Shown here one piece after another: positions 12,273-16,863 of a stretch of 64,000 bases of DNA (the first letter of the stretch is position 1; each line of letters begins with the position of its first letter). A program made the translations under genes and the position numbers. The DNA is from Kondoa subrosea. Lineage: Eukaryota. The stretch spans positions 2,979,136 to 3,043,135 of the forward strand of contig BCIN01000001.1 of assembly GCA_039545335.1 (NCBI GenBank), given 5' to 3'. The notes beneath the pieces are model-generated. The model did no database searches. It had not been told where the DNA came from and worked only from the letters and a program-made list of their open reading frames with translations.

Positions 12273-13104
12273 CTTGAAATGAGGATAGTTGACAGCTGCC
12301 GCAAAGTATTGAAAGTATTATTGGGTGTGCACCAGAGGGCTAGAGGTACTACTAGAAAGCAGGCGAACCCCGAGTTTGACCAGATTGTGGAAGAGCAAGA
12401 ACGAAGAAAAGAGAAAGAGAACTGGAGTAGGGGTATATCTGAGGGGCACATCAATTCACGCAGGACCTCCGCAAGTATCTCTACGCCAAGATTGGGACAT
12501 TATCGAGGCTGTGCAAATTAGAAGCTTTCTGGTGTGGTGGAAATCTCTGCGATCCCCAATCTTGGCAGAAAGTGACTGCCGGTAGACGCATGAGTAGCAT
12601 GGAGCGGCATCGGCTTGTGAAGATAATGCACCGAGAAAAAGCGAAAAGAGGCATGGAGTTGTCGAAAGCGGCTCTTTGGAAACAGGGAAACAGTTGGCAT
12701 TGAAGCATAAGAAAACGGAGTCTGAGCCTGGACGACGCGTAGGCAGTAGTCCAAAGCACAAAGACAGCGCACACGAGGCTACAAGCAGACGATAGCGGAG
12801 ACAGAGAAGTCAGAAGTAGAACTGATGCCAATATCAAGCCAAACAAGTTTTAATGGTTATTTCGCTCTTCTGCCTTTTTTGCGTGGTATAGAGCTTGCAG
12901 TATAGGTAGTATGGACCGCAGATATCATCCTTTGAAGCTGCGATTGGCTGTTGCATGTCAACAACAACGTGTCGCGGTGGTCGCTTGGAGTCTTCAAGTC
13001 TGCAAAGATCTGCGGCTATACTACAACTCATCGAAGCAAAAGCTATGCTACGTACATGTACAATGGCTTCTAGCTGTTTTGGAAACACATTTCTTCCTTC
13101 TCAA

Positions 13105-13915
13105 TCAATCGCTATCCGATCCATAAGCCCCTGACAGCTCAATCTTAGGTTCAGGTTTCTTAATCTTCCCACTCTTCAAATCTAGCCAAAATTGATGTAT
13201 GGGCGATTTATCCCTCAAGAAGCTGAATTTAGGATCCGTTGCATGATTGGCTAGAACTTTCATCTCCAGTAATGCTGGATTCGAAGCAGAGGAAAGCAGA
13301 GAAGCTGTACGGGACATAAGTTCCCATTGATCGGAAGTGGGAGTGACCTGTCAATCGAAGAGGATTTGAGTATAGTCCTGGAAGTAGGAGCTAGATTAGA
13401 CCGACAGAGGTATCGCACCGCATGAGAGAGAGAAAAAGCAATGAAGCAGTAAGACGTAAAAGATCAGTGTAGCAGAGAGATCAAAGAACGCAGATTTGCC
13501 GCTTCGATGTGATGCATGGACGCACAGACATGTTCGTTTGGCAGAGAAAGAAGAAGGTCAGATCTTACCTCCTTGCGTGGCGCAGGCTTCTCCTCTTCTT
13601 CTCGCTTCTTCAGAGCCTGCAGTCTCTGCTCTCGCGCATCATCCAAATCATCCGACCTTGGCTTTTTGTTAGGTTGCTCCTGCACTTTCTGTAGCTGGTT
13701 AGAGGAGGAAGAACGCGAATAAATGGCTACAGGCGGTGATGAAGGACTTCTGAGAACGAATCCAATAAGCCCCGAAACAGGTGTTTAACGAAAGCAAAGC
13801 ACCTTGACTTTGATTTGGGTCTTGCTCGTTTCGCAGAAGCAGGAGGAATAGCAGACTCTTCATCTGATTGAGCATCTGGGAATTGTAGATCTTCGTCGAC
13901 TACACGCAGCGACAT
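13105..13915 (-). CDS. Small SURP/SWAP-like domain protein (putative splicing factor)
   Basis: Three exons. C-terminal segment VTPTSDQWELMSRTASLLSSASNPALLEMKVLANHATDPKFSFLR resembles the SURP module (..RTA..V....E.........F.FL). Ends in L..YGSDSD. No N-terminal DRY/EERY domain is visible. Confidence 0.65.
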
Positions 13916-13996
13916 TGCTCAGATAAAAGTCACAGACGCTATACAACACAGTAATTACACTTATTTCATACAAATCGTCCTTTGCCTTCCTCAGCT

Positions 13997-14503
13997 TCAT
14001 CTATTCCGAATCGTCACTACAGCTATAACAGCAGCCAATCCAAAGATAAGCCAACAAGCGACAATCCATTTCCCTTTCATCCACCATCATCAGCCTGATT
14101 GTAGCTTGTCGAGAAGAGGAAAGGAGCATACCATAACACTTTGTCTCGCTCCACAAGCATTCCCTCGATATCTTTGGTAAGCCGTTGTCGCGTTTCGCTA
14201 TTGCTGGATGAGGTAGATCGTTTGATGGACCTTGCCAAGAAGAGTACCAGTTCGATTTGCCTAACTGTTCATCAGGTGTAGCCTGTCCCTATATATCAGT
14301 ACGATTATCACAGCACAGCTAGCTGATAGATGACTGACGGGCGCCGTAGGAAACGAAGTGTACACATTCGATTGACCGCGAGAGAAAGGCGGTTTCTGTG
14401 CTGATGCGGCAGAAGGGAAAGAAGTTCGTTGAGGTGCTAGATTATGCTTCTGGCTGGTCGCCAACAGCGAATTGCGTTCACTTGTTTGAGCTGGTGAAGT
14501 CAT
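13997..14503 (-). CDS. Small hypothetical protein with a C-terminal transmembrane segment
   Basis: MTSPAQTSERNSLL... joined by two GT-AG introns to ...ECLWSETKCYGKWIVACWLIFGLAAVIAVVTIRNR*. Confidence 0.6.
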
Positions 14504-15130: not shown

Positions 15131-16863
15131 TTATAATTCCTTCTTCTCTGTTCCTGCATGTTTCGCGGTCCATTTCTCCAAAGCACCAACCTGAAAATCA
15201 ACTAATCAGCTTCTACCTTTCCCATATCGAACAAAGCTTACTCTTTCCGACACTGTAGGGTGAGAGTGATGTAGAGCAGAATATAACTGTGCACCCAAGT
15301 TCAGCAGAGCAACTAGAGAATCTGGGATTCGCTAAGCAAGTACGCACTGGATCGATATCGTATATTTGAGAGTTCTTCTGCATGAGTGTGACCAAAGCGC
15401 TGTACGCAAAGACATCAACTTCAGCTCTGAGGAGGAACATAGCTGATTGAAGACGTACTTTTTCAATTCTGCTTGATAACCTTGTTCCGCCGCGAATCTG
15501 TCAGCAGCGAACTCCAATTTCCTACTGAAAGCATTTGCAGAGAAAGAAGCCAAAGCGTCTAGAGGGGACAAGAGAGCTCCAGCTAAAGAGAATCCAACGA
15601 TGATTGGGCAACCCTTGTTGGCTCCGTAAGCTGGTTGAGGAGTAATACCGAATGATCTGAAGAGAGCTGGTTCGAAGAGAAAGAGAGCGTAGAGTGTCAA
15701 GGCTAGGAAAAGGTTGATTTGACCCATGCCCATCATTCTCAACGAGTCGTAGTGTTTGAAGTGACCTGTACGATGATCGCACTGCAGCTAAGCGCCTAAT
15801 GCGCTGCCGCTGCAAAACAAGACGTACCTAATTCATGAGCGAGTACTGCTTCAACTTGTTCAGGCGTATGGTCTTTCAATAAAGTATCATATAGTACGAT
15901 ATTCTTTGACAGGAATGGTAAGCCTGCGCAACAAGATCAGCTTAGCCTCTCGTTAGGTCCATGGCTGCTCACCAGTGAAGTAAGCATTGGAATGAGCCGA
16001 TCGAGTAGAACCATCAATGACCCAAATCTTGTTCAAGGGGAAATTCATCTTCTTGCCTAATGCTTCAATGCGATCTTGGAACTTCTTGTGCTCTGGTAGA
16101 TCTCTGATGTTGGTGAATTTGTTGAAGAGAGGCGCGATAAGAGCAGGATAAGCTGGAACGACGATGATTTGTACCAAGAGGCTGACATTACAGTGAGCTT
16201 TTACTTTCGCCGAGAAACTCGTATAACTCACAAGAAAGCCATAATGTATAAGACGAATTTCTCTCCATATCTCTCAATAATCCATAACGCAGCAGCCATT
16301 AATGGCAAGCCAATCACGGCACTCAGTAGCACAGTCTTCACCTGATCTTCAGCCCAAGTCTTGAATGTAGTCTTATTGAAACCATGCTTCTGTTCTAGAA
16401 CGAATGTCTTGTACAGCGATGCAGGAACAGAGGTAATGAGAGATAAGACAGCGGTGAAAGAAAGAAAGAAGAGTGAGACTGGAATCGGACTTGGATTTTT
16501 GAGACAGATGACAGCTAGATCCCAAACACGATTGATGTTGAGCAGCAAGATCAGAGTCTCAACAACGTTGATTACTCCAGTAATGAGTGAGAATTGTAAC
16601 TTCGACCTGGCATACGCTTGCGACTTGAAGAAGGCCAATCCAGCTGTCTCCTCTTCTTTGGCTTTCTCGTCACTTGGTAAGCAGTCCAAGACTGGTTTCA
16701 GTGAAGCAGGAGGTCTTGAATGATGCAATCGTGCATATTGCTTCAAATCTATAAGAAGTTGGAATGCTGAAGCTGCCACAGTGAAGACTATGGTATATCG
16801 CTTGTACGGCGTCGTGCTGAGGCTGGCTCGCAGATTGCCAACGAATGAATCTATATAATTCAT
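15131..16863 (-). CDS. STE24: CAAX prenyl protease 1 (peptidase M48A)
   Basis: Motifs YKTFVLEQKHGFNKTT, IAPLFNKF, VIDGSTRSAHSNAYFTG, EAVLAHELGH (HExxH split by an intron), SRKLEFAADRFA and HSHPTVSER. C-terminal KKEL. Confidence 0.95.

What the first reader, a model, noticed from the sequence alone, without database searches (positions are those of the whole stretch)
13348..13568. Putative autoregulatory 'poison' intron in the SURP/SWAP-like splicing factor
Seen: intron 2 is 221 nt, versus about 50 nt for most introns in this window. It is pyrimidine-rich and has only one AG between 13563 and 13393. The best-looking 3' site (branch CTAAT 13399-13395, then ctcctacttccag ending at 13378) leads to GAC TAT ACT CAA ATC CTC TTC GAT TGA, a stop in the SURP frame immediately before the only productive acceptor (CAG ending at 13348, weak branch site). 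Retention stops at 13464, and the acceptor at 13502 gives a stop after 6 codons. Established: Drosophila and mammalian SWAP repress splicing of their own pre-mRNA, and SURP proteins (SF3A1, SUGP1) act in branch-site recognition. Inference: a fungal negative-feedback sensor of branch-point/3' splice-site fidelity coupled to NMD.
Basis: partly seen in the sequence, partly recalled or inferred. Interest (0 to 1): 0.7.

Follow-up and report, generated by a model that had tools for sequence, protein, structure and literature searches.

The report
Long intron in SWAP-like splicing gene
A small fungal gene related to the splicing regulator SWAP has one unusually long intron containing a false splice site that would cut the protein short, but nothing found here shows that the cell uses it to control the gene.

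Summary
The sequence observation is correct. A minus-strand, three-exon gene (13915-13105) has a 221-nt second intron (13568-13348). It has five AGs, a CTAAT/CAG pair ending at 13378 and an in-frame TGA just before the productive CAG at 13348.

The protein is a divergent, reduced SWAP-family member with a single SURP module. Pfam scores it just under cut-off, but the PDB profile search, fold search, Atlas and a profile-profile link to DRY_EERY+SURP proteins all agree.

The intron sits at an old, conserved phase-0 position. 75 of 80 related metagenome loci have an intron there. Of 57 distinct sequences, 55 are 45-77 nt and two are 122 and 171 nt. None has a CTRAY-plus-decoy-AG arrangement.

The productive acceptor is not poorly served. 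TACTCAA lies 19 nt upstream, and CTCA-type branch sites are common among this window's candidate introns. AG depletion and a small hairpin over the decoy are within background.

No RNA data, genome or close relative was available. The best reading is an ordinary intron, lengthened in this lineage, with a cryptic site. Autoregulation stays possible (about 0.12) but unsupported.

The parts
13803..13915 (-). Exon 1 (ATG 13915-13913; 37 codons plus 2 nt). It carries an FPDAQSDEES stretch resembling the family's DLPSD.ED motif.
   Evidence: There is no Pfam hit.
13750..13802 (-). Intron 1, 53 nt, GTGCTT...CAG, with a CTTAT branch candidate.
   Evidence: Read. It is needed to reach the exon-2 frame.
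13569..13749 (-). Exon 2 (60 codons). It is basic/acidic and low in complexity, and colinear with the family's KRRR..RE.RL.AL..EEE segment.
   Evidence: tblastn of relative P0059: 51% identity over 39 aa, E 8.5e-4. Alignment.
13348..13568 (-). Intron 2, the finding: 221 nt, phase 0, GTAAGA donor, CAG acceptor.
   Evidence: It is the longest of 58 distinct orthologous introns.
13395..13399 (-). Canonical CTAAT branch candidate (A at 13396). It lies 18 nt before the decoy CAG and 48 nt before the productive CAG.
13373..13393 (-). Small hairpin: 7 bp with one bulged C, -4.8 kcal/mol. Its arms hold the TAG (13393-13391) and the decoy AG (13379-13378).
   Evidence: unpaired probability is 0.09 and 0.00 for the decoy AG, against 0.71 and 0.72 for the productive AG. 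It is not unusual: 20-26% of native 33-nt windows fold as well.
13378..13380 (-). Decoy (alternative) 3' splice site CAG, 30 nt upstream of the productive one.
   Evidence: Its use is untested.
13351..13353 (-). In-frame TGA, read only if the 13378 acceptor is used.
13366..13372 (-). TACTCAA branch candidate for the productive acceptor (A at 13367, 19 nt from G 13348).
   Evidence: Sequence. CTCA-type branch candidates are common in this window (10 of 31 candidate short introns have only a CTYAH-type site). They also occur in relatives' orthologous introns.
13348..13350 (-). Productive 3' splice site CAG.
   Evidence: It joins exon 2 in frame to the SURP exon. Homology in relatives begins 2 codons downstream.
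13105..13347 (-). Exon 3 (80 codons plus TGA 13107-13105): SURP module and GSDSD tail.
   Evidence: Pfam Surp 20.8 bits against a cut-off of 21.1. 179 relatives. AF2 pLDDT 79. SURP folds come first in the fold search.

Best explanation
Intron 2 is a constitutively removed spliceosomal intron at an ancient phase-0 position directly upstream of the SURP exon. The gene encodes a reduced SWAP-family protein. In this lineage the intron has grown to 221 nt, about four times the family's usual 59 nt.

Productive splicing most likely uses the GTAAGA donor, the TACTCAA branch site (A at 13367) and the CAG at 13348, 19 nt downstream. This is a normal module for this genome.

The upstream CTAAT/CAG-13378 pair is a cryptic site of the kind that longer introns collect by chance. 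If it is used now and then, or if the intron is retained, the message ends early (TGA 13353-13351, or TGA 13466-13464) and is probably unstable. No dedicated feedback loop is needed to explain the sequence.

Shown: the gene model, protein family, intron position, length outlier status and lack of conservation. Inferred: which branch site is used, and the fate of aberrant RNAs.
For: - **Gene model.** The three exons give one open frame. Exon 2 and exon 3 are colinear with relatives.
- **Intron position.** 75 of 80 related loci have an intron at the same site, in 57 distinct sequences.
- **Length and decoy are not conserved.** 55 of 57 are 45-77 nt (median 59), and two are 122 and 171 nt, so sporadic lengthening also happens elsewhere. 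0 of 57 have a CTRAY followed by a decoy AG.
- **Branch sites here are degenerate.** Of 31 candidate short introns in the window, 9 have CTRAY, 10 have only CTYAH (CTCAA, CTCAT, CTCAC, CTTAT) and 12 have neither. Relatives' orthologous introns also end with CTCAA-type sites, for example L030, L061 and L073.
- **No sign of extra content in the intron.**
  - Rfam hits are all E >= 1.5 and far below gathering scores.
  - The fold z-score is -0.47.
  - There is no repeat copy in the window or in the loci.
- **Weak statistics.** AG depletion has P 0.027 on a stretch chosen after the fact, and the longest AG-free run has P 0.13. The hairpin's energy is matched by 20-26% of native windows.
Against: - The CTAAT-18 nt-CAG module is as good as or better than the productive one.
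- In S. pombe a branch-near 3' site wins over a branch-distant one (PMC9508853, passages read). If CTAAT is the branch actually used, 13378 would be preferred.
- The decoy is in frame (30 nt) yet carries a stop.
- Both intervening AGs lie in one small hairpin.
- The intron is the longest of 58 distinct orthologous introns.
- Animal members of the protein's family do autoregulate by controlling splicing of their own introns (PMC12017769, passage read).
- My set of window introns is heuristic and unverified.
- All relatives are distant (at most 62% identity over part of the SURP exon), so conservation among close relatives is unknown.
Confidence: 0.55

Rival explanations
1. The SWAP-like protein feeds back on its own pre-mRNA. 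Two branch-site/3'-site modules compete (CTAAT->13378 against TACTCAA->13348), or the intron is retained. The unproductive RNA carries a premature stop and is degraded.
For: - The protein belongs to the SWAP family.
- SWAP/SFSWAP is reported to autoregulate through its first two retained introns.
- An SFSWAP SURP domain binds the branch-point protein SF1 in vitro (PMC12017769, passages).
- Unproductive splicing of a splicing-factor gene is reported in fungi (PMC4379411, abstract).
- All three alternative outcomes give early stops.
- The intron is a length outlier.
Against: - There is no RNA evidence.
- The decoy and the long intron are absent from 57 distinct orthologous introns.
- The window protein lacks the DRY_EERY part and the second SURP, so the animal mechanism need not carry over.
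- The statistics on AG depletion and the hairpin are weak.
- No paper on a fungal SWAP homologue was found.
Confidence: 0.12
2. Structure-assisted 3' site choice. CTAAT (A at 13396) is the branch. The 13393-13373 hairpin hides the TAG and the decoy CAG and shortens the effective path to the CAG at 13348. Melting of the hairpin (by heat or a helicase) would expose the decoy.
For: - The hairpin pairs both intervening AGs. The decoy AG has an unpaired probability of 0.09 and 0.00, against 0.71 and 0.72 for the productive AG.
- Only 0.7% of mononucleotide shuffles of the 33-nt stretch fold as well.
- Bridging structures between branch and distant 3' sites are described in S. pombe (PMC9508853, passages).
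Against: - 20-26% of native 33-nt windows nearby fold at least as stably.
- The whole-intron fold has a z-score of -0.47.
- The nearer TACTCAA branch makes the model unnecessary.
- No relative could be used to test covariation.
Confidence: 0.1
3. The 221 nt are composite. A 67-nt intron (13568-13502), a 96-nt poison exon (13501-13406, with an in-frame TGA at 13483-13481) and a 58-nt intron (13405-13348, GTCGGT donor) would normally be skipped as one unit.
For: - Both flanking units have lengths typical for this genome.
- The middle piece is a multiple of 3 and carries a stop.
- Earlier notes on the same genome describe composite introns and micro-exons (not tested by me).
Against: - The 13502 acceptor is AAG, not YAG, and has no evident branch site.
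- GTCGGT is a weak donor.
- There is no AG|GT junction inside the intron.
- The only frame-keeping micro-exon (13501-13490) needs the poor donor GTTCTT.
Confidence: 0.05
4. The intron is long because it hosts something else: a small RNA, a transposon remnant, or an internal promoter for a SURP-only protein that starts at the ATG at 13317.
For: - CT-rich tracts lie in the intron.
- Several database relatives are ORFs that start at the equivalent Met, for example P0001.
Against: - No Rfam family reaches its threshold.
- No structure stands above shuffles.
- There is no repeat copy.
- The Met-start relatives are equally explained by ORF callers run on unspliced contigs.
- An out-of-frame ATG (13327) precedes 13317.
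Confidence: 0.04

Closest known systems
Drosophila su(w-a)/SWAP and human SFSWAP, which autoregulate by controlling splicing of their own first two introns (Zachar et al. 1987, 1994, as cited in PMC12017769; passage read)
   Same: The protein family is the same by homology. The single-SURP fungal family aligns with DRY_EERY+2xSURP proteins at 99.4% probability, E 5e-22. Failure to splice productively would cut off the SURP part.
   Different: The window protein has 178 aa, one SURP, no detectable DRY_EERY domain and no long RS domain. The intron is the second one and lies next to the SURP exon. No RNA evidence exists here.
Unproductive splicing coupled to NMD in splicing-factor genes (SR proteins; SRSF5 event reported in fungi; PMC4379411, abstract read)
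   Same: It is a splicing-factor gene in which an alternative 3' site, retention or a cassette would introduce a premature stop.
   Different: Those events are conserved, some ultraconserved. Here 0 of 57 distinct orthologous introns have the decoy, and the length is specific to this lineage.
Branch-point-distant 3' splice sites bridged by RNA structure in S. pombe (PMC9508853, passages read). S. cerevisiae 3' site masking and thermosensor (Meyer et al. 2011, seen only in that paper's reference list)
   Same: A hairpin between a canonical branch site and the used 3' site covers the intervening AGs.
   Different: The hairpin is weak and within background. A nearer branch candidate exists.
Cryptic (decoy) splice sites in ordinary long fungal introns (also the verdict of earlier notes on other long introns of this genome)
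   Same: A long intron holds chance GT, AG and branch-like motifs whose use would give stops.
   Different: The host gene is itself a splicing regulator, which makes feedback more plausible than for an average gene.

Membership tests
SURP module (Pfam PF01805) | Sequence match to the Surp profile at or above Pfam's gathering score (21.1 bits) | tested here: inconclusive
   Exon 3 scores 20.8 bits, E 4e-4, covering residues 23-53 and profile positions 14-45 of 53. Only 4 of 20 family members in A1 match Surp at E <= 0.01.
SURP module (Pfam PF01805) | The small helical SURP fold | tested here: met
   The AF2 model has pLDDT 79.4 and four helices. No Foldseek row has E <= 0.001 (best 0.088). Ranks 1, 2, 4, 7, 10 and 14 are named SURP domains (SF3A1, SFRS8, SF4), with probability 0.98-1.00 for ranks 1-6. 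The other eight of the first 14 are chains of human spliceosome entries. All 5 PDB sequences hit by the family profile are SF3A1 or SFRS8, with E 0.004-0.42. The top Atlas clusters are all Surp.
SWAP / SFSWAP family (DRY_EERY + SURP + RS) | N-terminal DRY_EERY domain (PF09750) | tested here: not met
   Exons 1-2 have no Pfam hit. No relative's N-terminal part matches anywhere in the window. No RYD.R motif lies upstream; only an FPDAQSDEES remnant is present. Relatives do have the domain: it is weak in P0029 and P0044 and strong in P0011, P0024, P0028 and P0062.
SWAP / SFSWAP family (DRY_EERY + SURP + RS) | Two SURP modules | tested here: not met
   The window protein has one module. So does the single-SURP fungal family.
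SWAP / SFSWAP family (DRY_EERY + SURP + RS) | Homology (common descent) with bona fide SWAP proteins | tested here: met
   phmmer with exon 3 finds DRY_EERY+2xSURP proteins (P0011 at E 8e-9). hhalign of family A2 against A3 gives 99.4%, E 5.1e-22, over 180 columns from the DRY_EERY region through SURP1.
Autoregulatory unproductive splicing (AS-NMD) | A stop-containing isoform exists in RNA and rises when NMD is blocked or when the protein is in excess | not testable with these tools
   No RNA run was listed. No genome is held.
Autoregulatory unproductive splicing (AS-NMD) | The alternative site or poison element is conserved in relatives | tested here: not met
   0 of 57 distinct orthologous introns have a CTRAY followed by a decoy AG. 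55 of 57 are 45-77 nt. Only distant relatives were available.
Structure-masked decoy 3' splice site | A structure between branch and 3' site that is more stable than background and covers the decoy AG | tested here: inconclusive
   The hairpin covers both AGs. However, 20-26% of native windows fold as stably.

The most novel reading that the evidence does not exclude
A fungal, minimal single-SURP descendant of SWAP senses its own level through competition between two branch-site/3'-site modules. These lie 30 nt apart in an intron that expanded in this lineage next to the SURP exon. The upstream module, partly hidden in a hairpin, yields a stop-containing, unstable mRNA. That would carry SWAP autoregulation, known in animals, over to fungi with a different intron and a different mechanism (3' site choice rather than retention).
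Probability: 0.12. Interest if true: 0.6.

Novelty: new member of a known kind. Interest (0 to 1): 0.3.

Why it matters
If the feedback were real, it would be the first case of SWAP-type autoregulation outside animals. It would also be a compact system for studying how a SURP protein influences branch-site and 3'-site choice. As things stand, the useful results are more modest:
- A divergent single-SURP fungal family, which Pfam's Surp model matches in only 4 of 20 aligned members at E <= 0.01, is tied to SWAP.
- Its SURP exon is preceded by an intron in 75 of 80 related loci.
- The window's 221-nt version is a lineage-specific outlier that can be tested with a single RT-PCR.

Tried and rejected
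- **RNA evidence:** no RNA holder was listed for 12900-14100.
- **Whole genome:** none is held.
- **Word-index protein search ('longer'):** no hit.
- **Rfam on 12900-14100:** three hits, all with E >= 1.5 and far below gathering scores. The one overlapping the intron is a mammalian lncRNA model at 16.6 against 45 bits.
- **Whole-intron fold:** z -0.47, and 61 of 200 shuffles fold as well.
- **Repeats:** no second copy in the window or in the 80 loci. The best other match is 13 nt in the window (E 0.17) and 19 nt in the loci.
- **Abutting or recursive introns:** there is no AG|GT inside the intron. The only frame-keeping micro-exon (13501-13490) needs the donor GTTCTT.
- **Extra N-terminal exons upstream:** not found.
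- **ORF-joining intron prediction up to 400 nt:** too noisy to give a length distribution.
- **Donor strength, orthologous intron against the upstream intron of relatives:** G at +5 in 41 of 55 against 23 of 23. I do not rely on this, because my choice of upstream-intron boundaries favoured strong donors and the loci are related.
- **Earlier notes of this scan:** nothing near this place, by sequence, or for SURP.
- **Literature:** no paper on a fungal SWAP homologue or its splicing turned up. One search was badly designed and told me nothing.
- **Taxon:** a second Atlas call on the neighbouring gene only confirmed a CAAX prenyl protease. I did not test the 'basidiomycete' label given in earlier notes.

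Full report
**Observation.** I read the region on the minus strand and rebuilt the gene.
- Exon 1 is 13915-13803, intron 1 is 13802-13750 (53 nt) and exon 2 is 13749-13569.
- Intron 2 is 13568-13348 (221 nt, GTAAGA...CAG).
- Exon 3 is 13347-13105 and ends in TGA. The product has 178 residues.

- The intron is 64% pyrimidine, against 51% for the window's minus strand.
- Its AGs end at 13564, 13502, 13391, 13378 and 13348.
- CTAAT is at 13399-13395.
- The CAG ending at 13378 leads to eight codons and then TGA (13353-13351).
- Retention stops at 13466-13464.
- The 13502 acceptor gives a stop after six codons.

One is the TAG at 13393-13391. The other is a TACTCAA branch candidate whose A (13367) lies 19 nt before the productive CAG.

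**The protein.** Exon 3 matches Pfam Surp at 20.8 bits, just under the 21.1-bit cut-off (E 4e-4). Exons 1 and 2 match nothing.

An exhaustive phmmer search with exon 3 found 179 proteins at E <= 0.001. The best, P0001, is only 56% identical. Most hits form a family with one SURP-like core and a GYGSDSD tail. More distant hits (P0011, P0024, P0028, P0062) carry DRY_EERY plus two Surp modules above Pfam's cut-offs, which is the SWAP architecture.

A profile of 14 full-length single-SURP relatives aligns with a profile of eight DRY_EERY+2xSURP proteins. The probability is 99.4% and E is 5e-22, over 180 columns from the DRY_EERY region through the first SURP.

Other lines agree:
- The family profile hits only SF3A1 and SFRS8 (SFSWAP) chains in the PDB. 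E-values are weak, 0.004-0.42.
- An AlphaFold model of exon 3 (pLDDT 79) gives no Foldseek match at E <= 0.001. The first 14 rows are nevertheless named SURP domains or chains of spliceosome entries.
- The top ESM-Atlas clusters are all Surp.

So 'SURP/SWAP-like' is right. The window's protein is a reduced form, though. It has no DRY_EERY domain, one SURP and no C-terminal basic tail.

Exon 2 is colinear with the family's basic/acidic segment (P0059, E 8.5e-4; alignment). This supports the exon 2-exon 3 join.

**The intron in relatives.** One metagenome scan returned 80 loci that encode relatives (199 stretches matched, 98 confirmed, 80 kept). I placed the splice sites using tblastn pairs and the conserved ...SDEE|GT and AG|PD..Q.ELM.RTA junctions.
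- 75 of 80 loci have an intron at this phase-0 site, in 57 distinct sequences. The window's acceptor lies two codons upstream of the usual one.
- 3 loci have none (L052, L075, L078).
- 2 could not be decided (L009 at a contig end; L072 missed by my pattern).

Lengths are 45-77 nt in 55 of 57, plus 122 (L071) and 171 (L003). The median is 59. The window's 221 nt is the longest.

None of the 57 has a CTRAY branch motif followed by another AG before the 3' site. So the position is old and conserved. The length and the tandem acceptor are not.

All these relatives are distant. No close relative's DNA could be reached.

**Splice signals in this genome.** I collected 31 candidate short introns in the window (42-80 nt, joining open frames of at least 70 codons; heuristic and unverified). 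Of these, 9 have CTRAY near the 3' end, 10 have only CTYAH types (CTCAA, CTCAT, CTCAC, CTTAT) and 12 have neither. Relatives' orthologous introns also end with CTCAA-type sites.

The TACTCAA 19 nt before the productive CAG is therefore a normal branch site here, not a weak one.

The site remains a credible competitor. In S. pombe, a branch-near 3' site beats a branch-distant one (PMC9508853, passages). If CTAAT is used, 13378 should win.

**Structure and content.**
- The whole intron folds no better than shuffles (z -0.47).
- A 7-bp hairpin (13393-13373, -4.8 kcal/mol) pairs both intervening AGs. The decoy AG is almost never unpaired in the ensemble (0.09 and 0.00), while the productive AG is mostly free (0.71 and 0.72). 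It is a neat fit for masking. However, 20-26% of native 33-nt windows nearby fold as stably, so I give it little weight.
- AG depletion is marginal (P 0.027 on a stretch chosen after the fact; longest AG-free run P 0.13).
- There is no Rfam family and no repeat.

**Composite readings.** Earlier notes on this genome (not checked by me) describe abutting introns and micro-exons. I therefore tested decompositions.
- There is no AG|GT inside the intron.
- The only frame-keeping micro-exon needs a poor donor.
- A 67-nt intron / 96-nt stop-containing exon / 58-nt intron layout is possible. It rests on an AAG acceptor with no evident branch site.

**What is known.** SWAP/SFSWAP is reported to autoregulate through its first two retained introns, and an SFSWAP SURP domain binds SF1 in vitro (PMC12017769, passages). 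Unproductive splicing of a splicing-factor gene has been seen in fungi (PMC4379411, abstract). I found no paper on a fungal SWAP homologue.

**Verdict.**
- **Most likely (0.55):** an ordinary intron, lengthened in this lineage, with a cryptic 3' site.
- **Autoregulation through that site (0.12):** plausible by analogy, but nothing found here supports it, and the lack of conservation speaks against it.
- **Structure-assisted site choice (0.10), a composite with a poison exon (0.05) and hosted elements (0.04):** these trail behind.
- The confidences are not meant to sum to one.

**Limits.** There is no RNA, no genome and no close relative. Intron boundaries in relatives and the window's intron set come from my own heuristics. 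The loci are not independent samples.

Noticed in passing
Related loci, e.g. L012:2502-2674, L017:2499-2672, L044:2459-2670, L045:708-904, L020:2494-2656, L005:2498-2673: In relatives, the other intron of the gene (inside the DRY_EERY region) is unusually long: median 174 nt, and 18 of 23 distinct sequences are 163-239 nt. 9 of 19 of those that are at least 120 nt carry AAGTCAAY, with the GT always 59-60 nt from the 3' end, in otherwise unalignable sequence. In L012, L017 and L044 a complete branch-plus-CAG module ends 4 nt before this GT (CAG-CGAA-GTCAAT). In L045 it ends 6 nt before. This looks like two intron modules around a frame-shifting micro-exon, or a nested or alternative 5' site. 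It may be a better candidate for regulated splicing in this family than the window's intron. The window's gene lacks this part.
   Followed up: partly
window 13997-14503 (-): By eye, there is a small three-exon gene for a roughly 130-aa protein with a C-terminal hydrophobic tail (two introns of about 50 and 58 nt). It ends only about 80 nt upstream of the SWAP-like gene's ATG. The two transcripts must overlap, or share a very short control region. I did not check this by homology.
   Followed up: no
Relatives P0044, P0052, P0059, P0075; loci L017, L065: Several database 'proteins' of this family contain the orthologous intron translated straight through (a V...Q insert of 18-23 residues before PD..Q..LM.RTA). 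In those species the intron has no in-frame stop, and in L017 and L065 it is also a multiple of three. These look like annotation artefacts.
   Followed up: partly
P0066: A 1679-aa ankyrin-repeat protein scores E 8e-6 against the SURP exon in four stretches. The SURP core (LLEMK.LANH..DP) resembles the ankyrin LL..GADPN motif, so weak SURP hits need care.
   Followed up: no
window 13000-13055 (-): A GTACGT...TTTGCAG stretch of 56 nt lies about 50 nt downstream of the gene's stop codon. It could be a 3'-UTR intron, but no clear branch site is present. Read by eye only.
   Followed up: no
window 16234-16863 (-): The neighbouring gene is a CAAX prenyl protease (Ste24 type, Peptidase_M48_N; Atlas score 0.95). 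It is ordinary.
   Followed up: partly
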